DNA from: Escherichia coli
GTDB taxonomy: Bacteria; Pseudomonadota; Gammaproteobacteria; Enterobacterales; Enterobacteriaceae
Reading direction: 5' to 3' (one strand)
NCBI RefSeq assembly: GCF_016026235.1
Contig: NZ_CP065613.1
Length of the DNA: 64,000 nucleotides
Under the pieces are notes generated by a model. That model was not told the DNA's origin and made no database searches. It worked only from the letters and a program-made list of their open reading frames with translations. Numbering within the stretch: the first letter of the stretch is position 1; each line of letters opens with the position of its first letter. Made by a program: the position numbers and the translations under genes. Of this stretch, positions 16,419 through 64,000 are shown piece after piece.

Positions 16419-18071
<1,653 letters not shown>

Positions 18072-18143: not shown

Positions 18144-19457
<1,314 letters not shown>

Positions 19458-19482
19458 GACTGACTTTATCTGATTTAAAAAT

Positions 19483-19507
19483 GCCAGCCTCCGGGCTGGC
19501 ATTTTTT
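19483..19507 (+). terminator. Rho-independent terminator after eno
   Basis: Hairpin GCCAGCCTCCGGGCTGGC followed by ATTTTTT. Confidence 0.8.
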
Positions 19508-19516
19508 ATGGTTGAG

Positions 19517-20422
19517 TTACCAGCGGCCGGATGCGCCGCCACCTCCAGAAGAACCGCCACCGCCGCTAAATCCGCCGCCACTTGAGCCTCCACCGGAAGA
19601 GGATGAAGAAGAACCTTTTCTTGAAGCTCTTTCTTTACTGAGTTTTTTGTATTTGGCGCGTAGCTTTTTATTGACGATAAGCCAAAAAATAACCAGTGGT
19701 ACGATCGCAAAAGGCGTTAACATACCGCAGGCAACGATTAAATTGGTCCATGGTCCTGGCTCGGCAACATAGAGGAATACCATCCCGTAAATGGCGCCAG
19801 TGAGAGTGATCTAGGGTAAATTCGACGGATCGGTAAAAACAATAAAATATGAAAGTACCGCCAGCAATATAATTACAGCAAGCGATAATGGAATAGGGGG
19901 ATTGATACTGTAATAATCCCCCCTGTCTTCCGGTAATTCACCATTTAACAGAAGCGCGCCGATATTTTCGCTTGCCAGTGTTAATCCACCCATCAGGTCA
20001 TCACTTTTGAAGGCAGGGATCAATATATCCCTGATAATCTTCGCCGCTTGCAGGTCGGTAACCACCCCTTCCAGCCCGTAGCCAACCTCAATACGAACAG
20101 CATGATCCTCCTAGGCAACCAGAAGTAAAATACCATCGTTTCTCTGCTTATCTCCCAGTTTCCAGCTATCAAAAACCCTTGTAGCATATTGTTCAATGGA
20201 ATCGTCTCCGGTGGACGGCACTACTAATACAGCGACCTGCGCCCGTGTTTTATGTGTAATATCCTGCAGTTGCTGTGTCAGTGATTGTTGTTCAGAAGTG
20301 CTTAACGTACCAGTAATATCGGTCACCTGTTGGCGCAGTTCCGGCACAGCAATTTGCTGGGCAAGCCCAGGAAGGCACCACAAAGTGAATAGAATAAAGA
20401 TTAAGCGCATTACGATCACCAA
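19517..20422 (-). pseudogene. TPM-domain (YgcG/UPF0603-like) protein, third tandem paralog, disrupted
   Basis: Three consecutive minus-strand ORFs (20111-20422, 19811-20065, 19517-19783) together align to the full-length paralogs upstream. In-frame TAG at 20111-20113 where the paralogs have Trp (LLLVA-W-QDH), plus a frame change near 19784-19815. C-terminus retains the GGGSSGGGFSGGGGSSGGGGASGRW tail. Confidence 0.75.
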
Positions 20423-21564
20423 CGGCCGGATGAACCGCCGCCTCCTGAAGAACCGCCACCACCGCGGAAAGAATTTCTCGACGAAGAGCGAGAATGAGCA
20501 TTACGATTCCCCGTTTTCCTGTTGCTTTTTTCTCCTGACCCCAGCTTAAGATTGCCAGTAAATTTGGCCACAATGATCAGCAGAACGATGCCAGCAATGG
20601 TTATTGGGCCGATAAAATGATCAATTAACCCAATAATTGTTGAGATGAATGCAATATCTTTATTACTGGCGAACACCAGGCACCATCCCACAATAATTAT
20701 CAGCATCACGACAAACAATGAATTTCGTCCTGATTCACGAACCTGCGGAGTCTTCTTTTGTTTTTTCACTTTAGCGTTTTTATTTTTTGGGGGCAGCATC
20801 ATAGGAAATACGCGGCACATATTAAAAACTACCGCGAGACGCTGCTTGCAGGTTGTTGCTAACAATAAACTAAAACAAACGACCGATACCCGCCGAATGA
20901 TGACATCGTCCTGAAAGGAGAAAAACCAGACCATAGGGGTAATCATCGATATCATCCATATGCCACGCCGTGGGCGGCTGGCAAATCGCCAGAGGACAAC
21001 GATGGCAACGATCATCAGCAGTGTCCAGGCAAGACATGGCAGCGAACGTTGCGGATTAGCAAACAGATGATTGGCTAAAGCATCCAAAGGGCTAAGGTTC
21101 GCTTTGATATGGGTAAACTGTGCGATGCTTTCAATTCCGCCCGTTAATCCAGCAAAGAGATTGTTTTTTTCGAATTCTGGCTGCATATGGTAACGAACAA
21201 TTTGCGCAGCTTGTTCCGGCGGCAACATCTCTTCCAGTCCATGTCCAATCTTCATTGACGCCAGCCCTTCCGGCCAAACGACGAGAATTAAGATACCTTC
21301 GCCATATCGCTTCTCTCCAACGGGTTTCCAGTGATATACCCCGTAGCTCTGCGAGGCTGCAAGTTTAATGTTTTTGCCCCCTGTTGTCGGCGTAACCAAC
21401 ACGGCCACCTGGAAGTGGTTTTGCTGCTCGAGAGTCTGTAATTGTTGATTTAAAGCACTTTGTTCTTCTGTCGTTAATGTCCCGGTTAAGTCAGTCACTG
21501 AAGGCAATCGTTCAGCGAATACCTGAAAACCGCATAGCATCAGAAGTAAGAGAAAAATACGCAT
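20416..21564 (-). CDS. TPM-domain membrane protein, second tandem paralog, 382 aa
   Basis: N-terminal signal-like segment, TPM-like core (LTGTLTTEEQSALNQQLQTLEQQNHFQVAVLV), several hydrophobic segments, Gly/Ser-rich tail ...FRGGGGSSGGGGSSGRW. Confidence 0.75.
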   Translation of the reverse strand: MRIFLLLLMLCGFQVFAERLPSVTDLTGTLTTEEQSALNQQLQTLEQQNHFQVAVLVTPTTGGKNIKLAASQSYGVYHWKPVGEKRYGEGILILVVWPEGLASMKIGHGLEEMLPPEQAAQIVRYHMQPEFEKNNLFAGLTGGIESIAQFTHIKANLSPLDALANHLFANPQRSLPCLAWTLLMIVAIVVLWRFASRPRRGIWMISMITPMVWFFSFQDDVIIRRVSVVCFSLLLATTCKQRLAVVFNMCRVFPMMLPPKNKNAKVKKQKKTPQVRESGRNSLFVVMLIIIVGWCLVFASNKDIAFISTIIGLIDHFIGPITIAGIVLLIIVAKFTGNLKLGSGEKSNRKTGNRNAHSRSSSRNSFRGGGGSSGGGGSSGRW

Positions 21565-21578
21565 ATCAATTCCTTTTG

Positions 21579-22472
21579 TTACCAGCGCCCGGAAGCGCCA
21601 CCGCCACCAGATGAACCGCCACCACCGCTAAAATTGTCATTGTCGAATGAAGAGGATGACGATGATGAATAGTGGGAGGAAGAATTGCTTCTTGTATGGC
21701 GTGATGGCTGGTTGGCATCACGCATCGAATCTCGAACCTTTTTGCCGAAGGGGGTAAAAGCGATGGCAACTGCCAGGAACGGTGTGGCGAAGCAGAGTAA
21801 TGTTGCGAGTACTCCCCAGCTTCCGCTGAAACCTGCTATAGGTAAAACAAAGGCCAGTACAATAGCTGCGAAACAAATTACTCCCAGCGTTTTGATATAT
21901 CCTCTGGCAGAAATAAACGTCAGTACTATCGCCCAGACTAACAAAGCCCACCAACCGCTAAAGGGTAAAGGGTGATCGGTCGGTGTTATCGTTGCTAAAT
22001 TATTCCCCGTCAGACGACTTTCAAGATCGCTGATCCCCTTTTGTAAACCGACAGCAAGATCGCCCTTTTTAAACGCTGGAATAATACTGTTGCGTATAAT
22101 TTGCCCGGACTGCGCATCCGTAATAATACCTTCCAGTCCGTAACCAATTTCAATACGCACGGTATGATCCTGCCAGGCGACTAACAGTAGAACGCCATCA
22201 TCGCGGTCTTTATCACCCGGTTTCCAGCTATCGAATACCCGCGTTGCGTACTGCTCGATGCTTTCATCGCCTGTTGTTTCAACCACTAACACGACCAACT
22301 GTGCGTGGTTTTTTTGCGTCAGGGCTTTGATCTGGTTGGTCAGGGTGTTTACTTCGCTATTTGTTAATGTGCCGGTTAAGTCATTCACATACCTGGGTGA
22401 TTCAGGTACTGGAATTTGTGTGGCAAACACAGATGAACAGAAGAAAGCCATAAGGAAGATAAAATTTCGCAT
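21579..22472 (-). CDS. TPM-domain protein, first tandem paralog, YgcG-like
   Basis: Starts MRNFIFLMAFFCSSVFATQIPVPESPRYVNDLTGTLTNSEV... (297 aa from the ATG preceded by GGGGAAG), ends ...FSGGGGSSGGGGASGRW. Which paralog corresponds to K-12 ygcG is uncertain. Confidence 0.75.
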   Translation of the reverse strand: MRNFIFLMAFFCSSVFATQIPVPESPRYVNDLTGTLTNSEVNTLTNQIKALTQKNHAQLVVLVVETTGDESIEQYATRVFDSWKPGDKDRDDGVLLLVAWQDHTVRIEIGYGLEGIITDAQSGQIIRNSIIPAFKKGDLAVGLQKGISDLESRLTGNNLATITPTDHPLPFSGWWALLVWAIVLTFISARGYIKTLGVICFAAIVLAFVLPIAGFSGSWGVLATLLCFATPFLAVAIAFTPFGKKVRDSMRDANQPSRHTRSNSSSHYSSSSSSSFDNDNFSGGGGSSGGGGASGRW

Positions 22473-22485
22473 AGAACTTCCCCGC

Positions 22486-23088
22486 TTAATGAGCACTAGC
22501 ATTCTGGCTAAAATCTATTGTTGGTGCTTTACTCACAGCGGCGACATCATCCGGCAAATAATTTTTCTTTGGTGTGTAATCCATGACCTTTGCGGTTAAC
22601 ACAGCGGGGAATTTGCGGATAGTGACATTATATTGTTCAATGGCTTTAATATATCTTCCTCGCGCAACGGCAATCCGATTTTCACTTCCTTCAAGCTGTA
22701 CCATTAAATTTTGATAGAGTTCCTGAGATTTTAACTCAGGGTAACGCTCACTAATTATCGTTAACTGACCGAGAGTGCGAGTCACCTGCGCTTGAGCCTG
22801 TTGCCAGGCTTGTAATTTTTGTTCATCTCCCGGAGTTTGCTGAAGATCGCTACTGGCGCGATTAGCCTGGCTACGAGCCAATGTTACGGCTTCCAGTACA
22901 TCTCGTTCATGGCTGGAATAACCTTTAATACTGGCGACAAGATTAGGAATAAGATAGGCGCGACGTTGATATTGATTCAATACCTCAGACCAGGAGGCGT
23001 TAACCTGCTCATCATAGGTTTGAATATCGTTATATCCACAGCCTGATAAATTGAAAATAAATATAATTACGATGAATATTCTGAGCAT
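22486..23088 (-). CDS. LemA family protein
   Basis: 200-aa ORF with N-terminal hydrophobic segment and LemA-like core (RRAYLIPNLVASIKGYSSHERDVLEAVTLARSQA...RYPELKSQELYQNLMVQLEGSENRIAVARGRY); first gene of an apparent operon with the TPM genes, divergent from queE. Confidence 0.7.
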   Translation of the reverse strand: MLRIFIVIIFIFNLSGCGYNDIQTYDEQVNASWSEVLNQYQRRAYLIPNLVASIKGYSSHERDVLEAVTLARSQANRASSDLQQTPGDEQKLQAWQQAQAQVTRTLGQLTIISERYPELKSQELYQNLMVQLEGSENRIAVARGRYIKAIEQYNVTIRKFPAVLTAKVMDYTPKKNYLPDDVAAVSKAPTIDFSQNASAH

Positions 23089-23260
23089 GTTTAAATCCCT
23101 TTTAATTAATTCCTTAAAACATAATACTCTGCTTCATTTTATTCTTTATGATCTAATCCACTTTTTGCCATAAACCTGCCTGTAACAGAATGTTAATAAG
23201 ACATGATTGTTGTGGCAGGATCTGCAATAATTAACAATTATCCACTTCACAGAGAATGCT

Positions 23261-23932
23261 ATGCAGTACCCGATTAACGAGATGTTCCAGACCCTGCAAG
23301 GTGAGGGTTACTTTACCGGCGTCCCCGCCATTTTTATTCGTTTACAGGGATGCCCGGTTGGCTGTGCCTGGTGCGACACCAAACACACCTGGGAAAAGCT
23401 TGAGGATCGGGAAGTCTCCCTTTTCAGCATTCTGGCGAAGACCAAAGAGAGTGATAAGTGGGGGGCGGCGAGCAGTGAAGACTTGCTGGCTGTCATTGGT
23501 CGCCAGGGATATACCGCGCGGCATGTGGTGATTACGGGTGGTGAGCCTTGCATTCATGATTTGCTGCCACTGACTGACCTGCTCGAAAAGAACGGTTTTA
23601 GCTGCCAGATCGAAACCAGTGGTACTCATGAAGTACGCTGTACACCGAATACCTGGGTTACCGTATCGCCAAAGCTGAACATGCGCGGCGGCTATGAAGT
23701 GTTGTCACAGGCACTGGAGCGAGCCAACGAAATCAAGCATCCAGTGGGACGCGTACGTGATATTGAAGCACTGGATGAACTTTTGGCGACGCTGACCGAT
23801 GATAAACCGCGAGTCATTGCACTGCAGCCGATTAGCCAAAAGGATGATGCCACACGTTTGTGCATTGAAACCTGCATTGCGCGTAATTGGCGTTTGTCGA
23901 TGCAAACCCATAAATATTTAAATATTGCCTGA
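23261..23932 (+). CDS. queE: 7-carboxy-7-deazaguanine synthase QueE (YgcF), radical SAM
   Basis: 223-aa ORF MQYPINEMFQTLQGEGYFTGVPAIFIRLQGCPVGCAWCDTKH... Confidence 0.92.
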   Translation: MQYPINEMFQTLQGEGYFTGVPAIFIRLQGCPVGCAWCDTKHTWEKLEDREVSLFSILAKTKESDKWGAASSEDLLAVIGRQGYTARHVVITGGEPCIHDLLPLTDLLEKNGFSCQIETSGTHEVRCTPNTWVTVSPKLNMRGGYEVLSQALERANEIKHPVGRVRDIEALDELLATLTDDKPRVIALQPISQKDDATRLCIETCIARNWRLSMQTHKYLNIA

Positions 23933-24270: not shown

Positions 24271-24521
24271 GAGTTCCCCGCGCCAGCGGGGATAAACCGA
24301 TGACAAAAATTTGCAGGTGCTGGCAGAGGCCGAGTTCCCCGCGCCAGCGGGGATAAACCGTCAGGTGGGATGGTCAGCGCGAAACACACGCCGAGTTCCC
24401 CGCGCCAGCGGGGATAAACCGAGCGCGCAGTTATCAGCCGCGACAACATGAAAGAGTTCCCCGCGCCAGCGGGGATAAACCGCTCATATACGTTACAGCG
24501 TCGGAAATGGAGGCGAGTTCC

Positions 24522-39105: not shown

Positions 39106-39368
39106 ATATTGCCGGATAAATTAAACGCCTCTGTCAGAAATGATGGGGGCGTTTTTATTTTGCGAGCAGCATTCCTGATTTTAAACGTGAACGCCGCTGG
39201 AAGAATTATCAGGTATAGAATGGCGTCGGGTGCTTGAGGCTGTCTGGCGTTAAGCATTCGCGAGGTTCCAGATGGACAAAAGCCCCAGGCGATATTTCTA
39301 TCAACCTGAGGCTCGCGTTCGAACGTAGCAATTCGAATGTTAGTCTCTTCTTTGCAGGGAGGCAAGAC

Positions 39369-39521
39369 ATGCTGACAAAATATGCCCTTGTGGCAATCAT
39401 AGTGCTGTGTTTTACAGTACTGGGATTCACGCTGATGGTAGGCGACTCGTTGTGTGAGTTGAGTATCAGAGAACGTGGTATGGAGTTTAAGGCTGTTCTC
39501 GCTTACGAATCGAAGAAGTAG
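39369..39521 (+). CDS. Hok/Gef-family type I toxin-like small membrane protein, 50 aa
   Basis: [51 protein letters not shown]-terminal TM helix plus Hok-family signature SLCEL-IR...A-LAYES-K (compare Hok ...[25 protein letters not shown], from memory); GGGAGG Shine-Dalgarno 6 nt upstream. Confidence 0.75.
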
Positions 39522-39542: not shown

Positions 39543-40303
39543 CCTGAGGAATCCCCAGAAAACAAGACAGGCATAGTGAGATGTGATCTAATTGATTGTG
39601 CTAACAATTTCAAGGAGATCACCACTATGCCTGCACGTTCATTATGCCAAAATTTCCTTAACAATATACTGGCCCCTTTGCATCTTTACCGTCAAAAATC
39701 ACTGATTGACGCAACTAATGCTGTAATAAATGGCGCTTCCCTCACACTTACCAGTATCGGGCGTCATTTAACCGGTACGGCATCAGTTAAAAACAAAATA
39801 AAGCGGGTGGATCGACTGTTGGGGAATCGACATTTGCAAAATGAGGTTTCCACCATTTTTCAGCGAATTACCCAAAAGATTACGCGGGGAATGTCTCGTG
39901 TTGTGATACTCATTGACTGGAGTGCTTATCATGCCTCTCGTTTTCAGCTTTTGCGGGCAAGCCTGGCATGTGACGGGCGTTCTTTACCGTTGATGAGTTG
40001 TGTCGTTCCATCATCACAGACAGCGAATGCAGATGTACATGAGCGTTTTCTGGAATCGCTTGCTGAGTGCTTTTCCCCCGGGACTGATGTCATTGTTATT
40101 ACAGATGCCGGTTTTCAGGGGCGATGGTTCCAACAGCTCCGCTCCCGTGGCTGGACCTATATTTGCCGGGTACTGGGCAATCATTATTACAATGTTGGTA
40201 ATGGCTGGGAAAAGGTGTCGGACTCAGGCACAAAAGCATCAACGACAGCAATTTATTTAGGTGAAGGCCTGCTGGGTCGAGATAAAAATGCACAACATGA
40301 AGG
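39543..40303 (+). mobile_element. IS10-like insertion sequence (copy 3), left 761 bp only, truncated by IS4
   Basis: Begins CCTGAGGAATCCCCAGAAAACAAGACAGG 22 bp after the Hok-like stop; transposase frame (MPARSL... from 39627) is identical to copy 1 through ...KNAQHEG, then IS4 begins at 40304. Confidence 0.85.
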
Positions 40304-63069: not shown

Positions 63070-63255
63070 ATTTCTCTGAGATGTTCGCAAGCGGGCCAGT
63101 CCCCTGAGCCGATATTTCATACCACAAGAATGTGGCGCTCCGCGGTTGGTGAGCATGCTCGGTCCGTCCGAGAAGCCTTAAAACTGCGACGACACATTCA
63201 CCTTGAACCAAGGGTTCAAGGGTTACAGCCTGCGGCGGCATCTCGGAGATTCCCT
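63070..63255 (+). ncRNA. ssrS: 6S RNA (RNA polymerase sigma70-holoenzyme regulator)
   Basis: ATTTCTCTGAGATGTTCGCAAGCGGGCCAGTCCCCTGAGCCGATATTTCATACCACAAGAATGTGGCGCTCCGCGGTTGGTGAGCATGCTCGG... matches E. coli 6S RNA from memory; directly downstream of zapA, upstream of fau. Confidence 0.92.
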
Positions 63256-63876: not shown

Positions 63877-64000
63877 GGGCGATACACCTGCATCGCGCTG
63901 ATTGACATCGTTGATTCTTTAACCTAATTTAGTGAGTAAGGGTAAGGGAGGATTGCTCCTCCCCTGTGACTGACTGTTAATAAGCTGGGAAACTTATGAG

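What the first reader, a model, noticed from the sequence alone, without database searches (positions are those of the whole stretch)
19517..23088. LemA + three tandem TPM-domain paralogs between eno and queE
Four co-directional minus-strand genes, divergent from queE: a LemA-family protein (22486-23088) followed by three TPM-domain (YgcG-like) paralogs. Each has an N-terminal signal-like segment, a TPM core, hydrophobic segments and a distinctive Gly/Ser-rich tail ending GGGGSSGGGG(A/S)SGRW. lemA overlaps the first TPM start and the second and third TPM genes overlap by 7 bp, which suggests one operon. The eno-queE interval here is about 3.8 kb, whereas I recall about 2 kb in K-12, which annotates a single ygcG there, so this looks like a strain-variable, expanded locus. 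LemA/TPM pairs have no firmly established function, and a three-fold tandem expansion with one decaying copy hints at paralog turnover under selection.
Basis: partly seen in the sequence, partly recalled or inferred. Interest (0 to 1): 0.62.

Follow-up and report, generated by a model that had tools for sequence, protein, structure and literature searches.

The report
LemA plus three TPM membrane genes
Between the housekeeping genes eno and queE this E. coli strain keeps an old four-gene envelope operon of unknown function (one LemA lipoprotein, three TPM-domain membrane proteins, the last one dead), which about a fifth of E. coli strains carry and which survives in K-12 only as the stubs yqcG and ygcG; it is real, but already annotated and ordinary.

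Summary
Window 19517-23088 (minus strand) carries lemA and three TPM-domain genes, packed 13, 14 and 5 nt apart, between a queE-divergent promoter region and a bidirectional terminator shared with eno. Pfam assigns all four products.

The third TPM gene is dead. It has two in-frame TGG>TAG changes, both at Dcm sites (CCAGG>CTAGG).

The "expansion" reading is wrong.
- The paralogs are only 35-44% identical, so the duplication is old.
- E. albertii has the same LemA-A-B-C array at the same site, and all four genes are under purifying selection (dN/dS 0.04-0.27).
- K-12 is the reduced form. Its yqcG is a 46-codon vestige of lemA, and its ygcG is a fourth TPM type (D).

Among 5,426 complete E. coli genomes, 72% have the K-12 form, 20% this four-gene form (including O157:H7) and 6% a LemA + A + small-membrane-protein form.

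The operon belongs to a widespread module: a LemA lipoprotein plus a BA41/YgcG-type TPM protein whose cytoplasmic tail ends GGGGASGxW. It lacks the usual third gene, a short cytoplasmic TPM.

Function is unproven. My best guess is a stress-induced envelope maintenance complex. Novelty and interest are both low.

The parts
22486..23088 (-). lemA: LemA-family protein, 200 aa, predicted lipoprotein (lipobox LSGC, Cys17, followed by GYN)
   Evidence: Pfam PF04011, E 3.5e-46. PDB 2ETD LemA, E 1.4e-30. The LSGC-GYN lipobox is present in 80 of 84 LemA ORFs from related loci. AAGGGA Shine-Dalgarno before ATG 23088. dN/dS 0.04 against E. albertii.
21579..22472 (-). TPM-A (first TPM gene), 297 aa: signal peptide, periplasmic TPM domain, 3 TM helices, cytoplasmic Ser/Gly tail ending GGGGASGRW. 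Intact here.
   Evidence: Pfam PF04536, E 4e-40. PDB 7TBR 1e-20, 2KW7, and 5ANP BA41 3.5e-18. GGGGAAG Shine-Dalgarno, then ATG 22472, 13 nt after the lemA stop. Hydropathy and charge bias.
20416..21564 (-). TPM-B (second TPM gene), 382 aa: signal peptide, divergent TPM domain, about 5 TM helices with a Lys/Arg-rich loop, tail ending GGGGSSGRW
   Evidence: Pfam PF04536, E 1.1e-21. Topology. AAGGA Shine-Dalgarno, 14 nt after the TPM-A stop. Present in 1,102 of 5,426 genomes. dN/dS 0.27 against E. albertii.
19517..20410 (-). TPM-C (third TPM gene): pseudogene in this strain, reading frame kept but two premature amber codons
   Evidence: The translation shows stops at codons corresponding to Trp in FDAARGOS_943 and O157. 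The intact allele gives PF04536, E 3.8e-38. ATG 20410 lies 5 nt after the TPM-B stop.
20111..20113 (-). First amber codon in TPM-C (TGG>TAG). The + strand change is C>T at 20112 in CCAGG, a Dcm site.
   Evidence: No complete RefSeq E. coli genome has it (best match 99.4% of 336 nt). Three public assemblies are identical to the window.
19811..19813 (-). Second amber codon in TPM-C (TGG>TAG). The + strand change is C>T at 19812 in CCAGG, a Dcm site.
23089..23260 (.). Divergent lemA/queE control region. It is homologous to the K-12 yqcG-queE intergenic region, which binds sigma-S RNA polymerase and PhoP. A PhoP-box-like TGTTAC-N5-GGTTTA lies at 23171-23187.
   Evidence: Alignment A2: 87% identity to K-12 over the 140 columns upstream of the yqcG ATG (of which the queE-proximal ~92 are identical). 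Published binding data for K-12: PMC4974570, PMC4447067, PMC5493296. The box pattern alone is not above chance.
19477..19506 (.). Bidirectional intrinsic terminator shared by eno and the TPM operon: a 13-bp stem flanked by an A-run and a T-run
   Evidence: RNA fold -20.3 kcal/mol, z = -4.9. The sequence is conserved in K-12 (96.5% over the first 141 nt of the interval).

Best explanation
This is the Escherichia version of a widespread envelope module of unknown function, kept here as a four-gene operon lemA-tpmA-tpmB-tpmC.

Shown by sequence:
- LemA has a lipoprotein signal (LSGC), so its four-helix LemA domain faces the periplasm.
- Each TPM protein has a cleavable signal peptide, a periplasmic TPM domain and an odd number of TM helices (3, 5, 3).
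- Each also has a Lys/Arg- and Ser/Gly-rich tail that should be cytoplasmic and ends in the conserved GGGGxSGRW-COOH.

Shown by comparison:
- The array is ancestral at the eno-queE site in Escherichia and is under purifying selection.
- About 20% of E. coli retain it.
- K-12 carries the reduced remnant. There yqcG is a truncated lemA (stop at the position of lemA Gln42) and ygcG is a fourth TPM type.
- In this strain tpmC has been inactivated by two C>T changes at Dcm methylation sites, which turn Trp codons into amber codons. This allele is fixed in a small natural clade.

Inferred (probability about 0.35): the operon is transcribed from the sigma-S / PhoP / envelope-stress-responsive region it shares with queE. 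LemA and the TPM proteins then form a periplasm-facing membrane complex that helps assemble or repair envelope protein complexes. The TPM domains would act as metal-binding, chaperone-like modules, and the paralogs would be partly redundant, which would explain why single copies are lost.
For: Identity and architecture:
- Pfam, PDB and NCBIfam assignments.
- Tight spacing with Shine-Dalgarno sequences, no credible internal terminator, and a terminal hairpin.
- Lipobox in 80 of 84 homologues.
- Topology from hydropathy and the positive-inside rule.
- Tail: 73 of 92 long TPM ORFs end in GGG[GAS][AS]SGxW, as does Bacteroidota BA41. TPM-A and TPM-C differ by 7 synonymous and 0 amino-acid changes in their last 16 codons.
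- LemA is followed by a long TPM gene in nearly all of 76 proteobacterial loci. No other neighbour is conserved.

Ancestry:
- E. albertii and Entomohabitans have the module at the same site.
- dN/dS is 0.04-0.27, and dS is comparable to that of queE.
- yqcG/lemA homology: local alignment score 41 against a shuffle maximum of 20 in 2,000 trials.
- Haplotype counts.

Amber codons.

Regulation, by homology to the K-12 region:
- PhoP binds upstream of queE, and deleting yqcG raises queE expression (PMC4974570).
- Sigma-S RNA polymerase binds the queE/ygcG intergenic region (PMC4447067 and PMC5493296).
- RefSeq names YqcG a cell envelope stress response protein.

Chaperone-like role of TPM:
- Psb32/TLP18.3 act in photosystem II repair.
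- The PspA partner YdjH has a TPM domain (10.1101/2020.09.24.301986).
- lemA and a TPM gene are both induced in a Flavobacterium sppA mutant with membrane stress (PMC13236525).
Against: - No experiment bears on this operon.
- AlphaFold2 of mature LemA linked to the TPM-A periplasmic domain, with 38 paired rows, gave pTM 0.56. That gives no evidence of a fixed LemA-TPM contact.
- The PhoP-box-like match is not above chance (22 matches found, 14 expected).
- Regulation is extrapolated from K-12, whose sequence diverges from the window (84% identity) just upstream of lemA.
- The +2 rule would send LemA to the outer membrane, so a direct complex with inner-membrane TPM proteins is not assured.
- Repeated loss (K-12 form in 72% of genomes, TPM-A truncated in O157, TPM-C dead here) shows the system is dispensable in many niches.
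- In-vitro ATPase/ADPase and phosphatase activities reported for BA41, BA42 and TLP18.3 favour an enzymatic role instead.
Confidence: 0.6

Rival explanations
1. This would be a recent, strain-specific tandem expansion of the single K-12 ygcG, with paralog birth and death driven by positive or diversifying selection.
For: - The locus is variable among strains.
- There are four TPM types and C/D chimeras joined at the conserved IEQYATRVF box.
- The TM regions are far more divergent than the TPM domains and tails.
- Different copies are inactivated in different lineages.
Against: - Paralogs are 35-44% identical, so the duplication is old.
- E. albertii has the same LemA-A-B-C order at the same site.
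- dN/dS is 0.04-0.27, which indicates purifying selection.
- K-12 yqcG is a lemA vestige, so K-12 lost genes rather than this strain gaining them.
Confidence: 0.07
2. The TPM proteins are periplasmic metal-dependent phosphatases or nucleotidases (ecto-ATPase/ADPase type) tethered to the inner membrane. LemA would be an accessory protein. The operon would then process periplasmic nucleotides or phospho-compounds rather than chaperone complexes.
For: - TPM-A is a clear homologue of BA41 (PDB 5ANP, E 3.5e-18) and has the same tail.
- The D-x4-L-x3-E segment, which corresponds to the metal site described for LMTP1 and Rhom172_1776, is present in all paralogs (my reading of the alignment).
Against: - The reported activities are weak and in vitro. 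The field states there is no consensus on TPM function.
- An enzyme role does not explain the conserved cytoplasmic tail, the obligatory LemA partner, or the cytoplasmic short TPM partner in most bacteria.
Confidence: 0.2
3. The locus is a variable defence or competition cassette (phage exclusion, or colicin/bacteriocin immunity or receptor). That would explain why its alleles are so polymorphic.
For: - There are several alternative cassettes at one site, including a 121-aa membrane protein form in 340 genomes.
- GC content is slightly lower than in the flanks (0.39-0.49 against 0.50-0.53).
- The tails give a weak hit to the Gly-rich YxzE-like bacteriocin family (E 6e-5).
- A CRISPR array lies next to queE.
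Against: - No PADLOC family matches any of the four proteins.
- There are no mobility genes, and the module sits at the same site in other genera.
- The module is conserved across Proteobacteria and Bacteroidota in housekeeping-like contexts with no recurrent neighbours.
- The YxzE hit is low-complexity Gly/Ser sequence.
- The genes are under purifying selection.
Confidence: 0.07
4. The operon is a non-functional relic that is simply decaying in E. coli.
For: - K-12-type reduction is found in 72% of genomes.
- TPM-A carries a nonsense allele in about 300 genomes.
- TPM-C has a double amber here.
- FDAARGOS_943 has an IS1 between lemA and queE.
Against: - dN/dS is well below 1 for all four genes over the E. 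coli-E. albertii distance.
- The tail peptide is identical despite 7 synonymous changes.
- lemA, TPM-A and TPM-B are intact here, and all four ORFs are intact in the close relatives examined (FDAARGOS_943, GF130, E. albertii).
Confidence: 0.06

Closest known systems
E. coli K-12 yqcG-ygcG (b2778 region)
   Same: - Same chromosomal site, same flanks and terminator, and a homologous promoter region.
- YgcG has the same architecture: signal peptide, TPM domain, TM helices and a GGGGSSGGGGASGRW tail.
- yqcG is homologous to the 5' end of lemA.
   Different: - K-12 has one TPM gene of a fourth type (D), only 37-42% identical to the three here.
- K-12 has only a 46-codon stub of lemA.
- The interval is 1,224 bp there and 3,803 bp here.
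BA41/BA42 of Bizionia argentinensis (PDB 5ANP; 4OA3/2MPB), corresponding to the COG1512/YgcG-type and stand-alone TPM proteins
   Same: - TPM-A matches BA41 at E 3.5e-18.
- BA41 also carries hydrophobic segments and ends in GGGGASGGW.
- The proteobacterial loci show the same long-TPM plus short-TPM pairing downstream of LemA.
   Different: - The Escherichia operon has three long, membrane-anchored TPM genes and no short cytoplasmic BA42-like TPM.
- The ATPase/ADPase activity of BA41 has not been tested for these proteins.
LemA family (Thermotoga maritima TM0961, PDB 2ETD; Listeria LemA) and magnetosome protein MamQ
   Same: Full-length PF04011 match, 2ETD at E 1.4e-30, an N-terminal membrane anchor and an extracytoplasmic helical domain.
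   Different: - It is anchored by a lipobox rather than a TM helix.
- It is not a MamQ equivalog (87 bits against a cut-off of 250).
- MamQ is the only LemA member linked to a process, namely magnetosome membrane formation (PMC4902198).
Psb32 / TLP18.3 / LMTP1 (thylakoid lumenal TPM proteins) and Bacillus subtilis YdjH (PspA partner)
   Same: A TPM domain on the non-cytoplasmic side of an energy-transducing membrane, often with a TM anchor and a low-complexity tail. The proposed role is in assembly or repair of membrane complexes.
   Different: - Sequence similarity is only at domain level (Psb32 model 31-32 bits against a cut-off of 160).
- There is no photosystem here, and no pspA or Band-7 gene is linked to the operon.

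Membership tests
LemA family (Pfam PF04011) | Full-length match to the LemA profile or to the solved LemA structure | tested here: met
   PF04011, E 3.5e-46, model positions 1-149 of 149. 2ETD, E 1.4e-30.
LemA family (Pfam PF04011) | N-terminal membrane anchor with the helical domain outside the cytoplasm | tested here: met
   Hydrophobic N-terminus ending in lipobox LSGC (Cys17). The same LSGC-GYN is found in 80 of 84 homologues. Lipidation itself was not tested.
MamQ (NCBIfam NF040966 equivalog) | Score above the curated cut-off | tested here: not met
   87.2 bits against a cut-off of 250. It is a homologue, not an equivalog.
TPM domain (Pfam PF04536) | Profile match in each of the three products | tested here: met
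   E 4e-40 (A), 1.1e-21 (B) and 3.8e-38 (C, intact allele). The AF2 model of the TPM-A domain has pLDDT above 90 with an alpha/beta fold.
YgcG/BA41-type membrane TPM proteins (COG1512-like) | Signal peptide + TPM domain + TM segment(s) + Gly-rich C-terminal tail ending in Trp | tested here: met
   All three paralogs and K-12 YgcG have it. 85 of 92 long TPM ORFs from related loci end in W, as does BA41.
Canonical LemA / long TPM / short cytoplasmic TPM triad | A third gene for a TPM protein of about 165-170 aa without signal peptide or TM helix, ending in NELPDRPxxL | tested here: not met
   It is present in 43 of the related loci but absent from the Escherichia, Entomohabitans, Erwinia and Pseudomonas nitroreducens-type loci.
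Psb32 (NCBIfam NF047379 equivalog) | Score above the curated cut-off | tested here: not met
   32.4 and 31.1 bits against a cut-off of 160.
TPM phosphatase / ATPase activity | Metal-dependent hydrolysis of phospho-substrates | not testable with these tools
   Only sequence conservation of the D...L...E loop was seen. An enzyme assay is needed.
Known anti-phage defence systems (PADLOC-DB 2.0) | Match of any product to a defence-system profile | tested here: not met
   No family matched any of the four proteins at E <= 0.01.
Single operon | Co-transcription of the four genes | tested here: inconclusive
   Spacers of 13, 14 and 5 nt with Shine-Dalgarno sequences, no convincing internal terminator, and a strong terminal hairpin. 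No transcript data.

The most novel reading that the evidence does not exclude
LemA and the membrane TPM proteins would form a trans-envelope sensing or repair device. Its invariant cytoplasmic GGGGASGxW tails would relay periplasmic damage to a cytoplasmic partner, which in most bacteria would be the short TPM protein. In Escherichia the partner has been replaced by extra long paralogs that assemble as heteromers. The K-12 small protein YqcG would then be a neofunctionalised LemA anchor that still modulates the shared PhoP/sigma-S-controlled queE promoter region.
Probability: 0.1. Interest if true: 0.6.

Novelty: already known. Interest (0 to 1): 0.3.

Why it matters
LemA (PF04011) and TPM (PF04536) are very widespread families without an agreed function. 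E. coli offers natural genotypes that could make a function testable in a tractable host. These include the full four-gene set, single-copy knock-outs (TPM-A in O157, TPM-C in this clade) and near-complete loss (K-12).

The comparison also gives an origin for two K-12 orphans. YqcG, annotated as an envelope-stress small protein, is a stub of lemA, and YgcG is the last survivor of a TPM array.

Beyond that, the locus is ordinary accessory/core-variable content that RefSeq already annotates in more than a thousand genomes.

Tried and rejected
1. **LemA-TPM complex prediction.** I ran AlphaFold2 on mature LemA + (GGGGS)6 + the TPM-A periplasmic domain, with 38 genome-paired rows. The result was pTM 0.56, with both domains folded but no sign of confident docking. 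The tool gives no PAE, so the result is inconclusive, and I ran no further search on a shuffled control.
2. **Defence system.** PADLOC gave no hits.
3. **Conserved neighbours.** I clustered all ORFs of 76 loci. No family recurs in more than 16 loci besides LemA/TPM and out-of-frame shadow ORFs overlapping them.
4. **PhoP box.** The KGTTTA-N5-KGTTTA pattern with up to 2 mismatches matches at 23171-23187, but such matches are not above chance in the window (22 found, 14 expected), so I rely on published K-12 EMSA data instead.
5. **Promoter and terminator scan inside the operon.** Counts were at or below shuffle expectation.
6. **Literature.** Searches for LemA + TPM, ygcG and yqcG found no functional study of the pair. 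The hits were one transcriptome paper, incidental mentions and false hits (tPMP, Lemaire, Bacillus yqcG).
7. **K-12 ygcG as a recent A/C recombinant.** Rejected. Both its halves are 38-51% identical to A and C. However, the third genes of GF130 and SCPM are C/D chimeras.
8. **Mutagenesis or artefact origin of the amber codons.** Rejected. Three independent public assemblies carry the identical allele. SNPs against the nearest genome over 40 kb are of mixed types.
9. **Rfam.** Nothing was found inside the locus.

Full report
**What is in the sequence**

The window is E. coli chromosome: pyrG (16434-18071), eno (18159-19457) and queE (23261-23932) lie on the + strand. Between eno and queE four genes lie on the minus strand.
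- lemA is 22486-23088.
- Three TPM genes follow. I call them A (21579-22472), B (20416-21564) and C (19517-20410).

Pfam gives:
- LemA PF04011 at E 3.5e-46 over the whole model.
- TPM PF04536 at 4e-40 for A.
- 1.1e-21 for B.
- 3.8e-38 for the intact allele of C.

The closest solved structures are Thermotoga LemA 2ETD (1.4e-30) and, for A, the TPM proteins 7TBR, 2KW7 and BA41 (5ANP).

**Gene starts and operon structure**

The starts that give the signal peptides MRNFIF, MRIFLL and MRLIFI are ATG 22472, 21564 and 20410.
- ATG 22472 and 21564 are preceded by Shine-Dalgarno sequences (GGGGAAG, AAGGA); ATG 20410 by a weaker GGTGA overlapping the TPM-B stop.
- They lie 13, 14 and 5 nt after the preceding stop codon.

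No convincing internal terminator or promoter stands out above shuffle expectation. A 13-bp hairpin flanked by A- and T-runs at 19477-19506 (-20.3 kcal/mol, z -4.9) ends both eno and the operon. One operon is likely but not shown.

**The decaying copy**

Gene C keeps its reading frame but has two amber codons, at 20111-20113 and 19811-19813. The nearest complete genome, FDAARGOS_943 (99.9% identical), and O157:H7 both have TGG at these positions. On the + strand each change is CCAGG>CTAGG. This is a C>T change at the inner cytosine of a Dcm site. From established knowledge, such sites are the classical 5-methylcytosine deamination hot spots that create amber codons.

None of 5,426 complete RefSeq genomes has either change. 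The best match to a 336-nt probe spanning both is 99.4%. However, three public assemblies (GCA_031665325.1, GCA_001907395.1, GCA_050054195.1) are 100% identical to the window across the locus. A fourth carries the window's LemA allele but lacks the amber codons. So this is a natural pseudogene of a small clade, not an artefact.

**Protein architecture**
- LemA starts MLRIFIVIIFIFNLSGC-GYN. The LSGC lipobox followed by GYN is present in 80 of 84 LemA ORFs from related loci. LemA is therefore a predicted lipoprotein with a periplasmic helical domain.
- Each TPM protein has a signal peptide with a VFA/GLA cleavage motif and a TPM domain.
- Each then has 3 (A, C) or about 5 (B) hydrophobic helices and a Lys/Arg-rich Ser/Gly tail.
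- An odd number of helices plus the positive-inside rule places the TPM domain in the periplasm and the tail in the cytoplasm. This is inferred, not shown.
- A and C differ at 7 synonymous sites and no amino-acid site in their last 16 codons, so the tail peptide itself is under constraint.

**Relatives elsewhere**

A scan of one genome per species with LemA returned 583 relatives, of which the best 80 were kept.
- In nearly all of 76 proteobacterial loci, lemA is followed directly by a long TPM gene.
- 73 of 92 such ORFs end in GGG[GAS][AS]SGxW, and 85 of 92 end in Trp.
- In 43 loci a third gene follows. It encodes a TPM protein of about 165-170 aa without signal peptide or TM helix, ending in NELPDRPxxL.
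- No other gene family recurs in more than 16 loci.
- BA41 of the Bacteroidota species Bizionia argentinensis ends GGGGASGGW, so the module and its tail extend beyond Proteobacteria.
- The Escherichia operon is a variant with three long TPM genes and no short cytoplasmic one.

**History at this site**

The three paralogs are 35-44% identical to each other and to K-12 YgcG, so the duplication is old.
- E. albertii has LemA-A-B-C between queE and eno. Entomohabitans teleogrylli has LemA plus two TPM genes there. An E. fergusonii LemA falls in the same 90% cluster.
- Against E. albertii, dN/dS is 0.04 (lemA), 0.14 (A), 0.27 (B) and 0.13 (C). dS is 0.36-0.71, against 0.52 for queE. This fits long vertical residence under purifying selection.

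At least four TPM types occur at the site: A, B, C and D (D is K-12 YgcG). The third genes of strains GF130 and SCPM-O-B-8794 are chimeras. They are type C (86-90%) before the conserved IEQYATRVF box and type D (92-95%) after it.

In K-12 the interval is 1,224 bp and holds ygcG (type D) and yqcG (46 codons). The yqcG region aligns with the lemA promoter and first ~42 codons.
- It is 87% identical upstream of the yqcG start.
- It is 62.5% identical through the coding part.
- The local alignment score is 41, against a maximum of 20 in 2,000 shuffles.
- The yqcG stop TAA aligns with lemA CAA (Gln42).

**Frequencies in 5,426 complete E. coli genomes**

| Form | Genomes | Share |
|---|---|---|
| K-12 form (yqcG + D) | 3,924 | 72% |
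| Four-gene form, includes O157:H7 | 1,102 | 20% |
| of which carry type C | 782 | 14% |
| LemA + A + unrelated 121-aa membrane protein | 340 | 6% |

In about 300 genomes, mostly O157:H7, gene A is cut to 224 aa by a nonsense codon. Different lineages therefore lose different copies. RefSeq already annotates all of this as "LemA family protein" and "TPM domain-containing/YgcG family protein".

**Function**

Nothing is established.
- A 2025 preprint states there is no consensus on TPM function (10.1101/2024.10.28.620569).
- A 2016 paper states MamQ is the only LemA member tied to a process (PMC4902198).
- PADLOC gives no defence match.

The control region shared with queE is identical to K-12 over the ~92 nt next to queE and 84-87% identical further upstream. 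In K-12 this region binds PhoP, and deleting yqcG raises queE expression (PMC4974570). It also binds sigma-S RNA polymerase (PMC4447067 and PMC5493296). RefSeq names YqcG an envelope-stress protein.

TPM proteins elsewhere accompany membrane-complex repair (Psb32/TLP18.3) and the PspA system (YdjH).

My best guess, at about 0.35, is a stress-induced periplasm-facing LemA/TPM complex that helps maintain envelope protein complexes, with partly redundant paralogs. The main rival (about 0.2) is a tethered periplasmic nucleotidase or phosphatase, as reported in vitro for BA41, BA42 and TLP18.3.

An AlphaFold2 run on a linked LemA-TPM-A construct with paired rows gave pTM 0.56 and does not support or exclude a complex.

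**Verdict**

The feature is real, correctly recognised at domain level, strain-variable and of unknown function. It is ancestral rather than expanded, and it is already annotated in over a thousand genomes.

The small new points are:
- the origin of K-12 yqcG and ygcG;
- the four-type mosaic with C/D chimeras;
- the conserved cytoplasmic tail;
- the double Dcm-site amber allele.

Noticed in passing
L003 (E. coli K-12/C600) 3446-3586, against window 22960-23122: The K-12 small protein gene yqcG ("cell envelope stress response protein") is a 46-codon vestige of lemA. It has the same promoter region, its coding DNA is 62.5% identical to the lemA 5' end, and its stop codon aligns with lemA Gln42.
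   Followed up: yes
L005 2058-2942 and L007 9367-10251: The third TPM genes of strains GF130 and SCPM-O-B-8794 are chimeras. They are type C before the IEQYATRVF box and type D (K-12 YgcG) after it. This implies recombination or gene conversion between paralogs, and possibly an ancestral A-B-C-D array.
   Followed up: partly
L002 5122-6015, L005 4099-5007, L004 3501-4406: PGAP flags the TPM-A gene as "pseudo, missing C-terminus" in several genomes, although the 297-aa ORF with its tail is intact. This is probably because the reference protein is the O157 allele truncated to 224 aa.
   Followed up: partly
L004 3103-3465: 340 genomes carry, in place of TPM-B and TPM-C, an unrelated 121-aa hydrophobic "hypothetical protein" downstream of LemA + TPM-A. 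This is another cassette at the same site.
   Followed up: partly
window 1587-1946 (SNP at 1762): This is the CsrB sRNA gene. The window differs from FDAARGOS_943 inside it by another CCAGG/CTAGG (Dcm-site) change. The direction of the change was not determined.
   Followed up: no
window 24271-24523 and 24507-25796: A short type I-E CRISPR remnant (about 4 repeats of GAGTTCCCCGCGCCAGCGGGGATAAACCG) lies next to queE. It is cut by an IS4-family (ISEc60-like) transposase gene.
   Followed up: partly
window 28480-29248, 31576-32883, 39543-40303, and the boundary at 40303: There are several IS copies (IS1, ISEc60-like). Collinearity with FDAARGOS_943 ends at 40303, at an IS end. Beyond it lie genes from another chromosomal region (6S RNA at 63070-63253, SIB RNA at 63902-64000). 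This looks like an IS-mediated rearrangement or deletion that removed the cas region.
   Followed up: partly
window 39228-39384: A sok antisense RNA of a chromosomal hok/sok locus lies next to cysH.
   Followed up: no
L002 6737-7434, against window about 23125-23138: The nearest complete genome has an IS1A inserted between lemA and queE, in the shared control region. The window lacks it.
   Followed up: no
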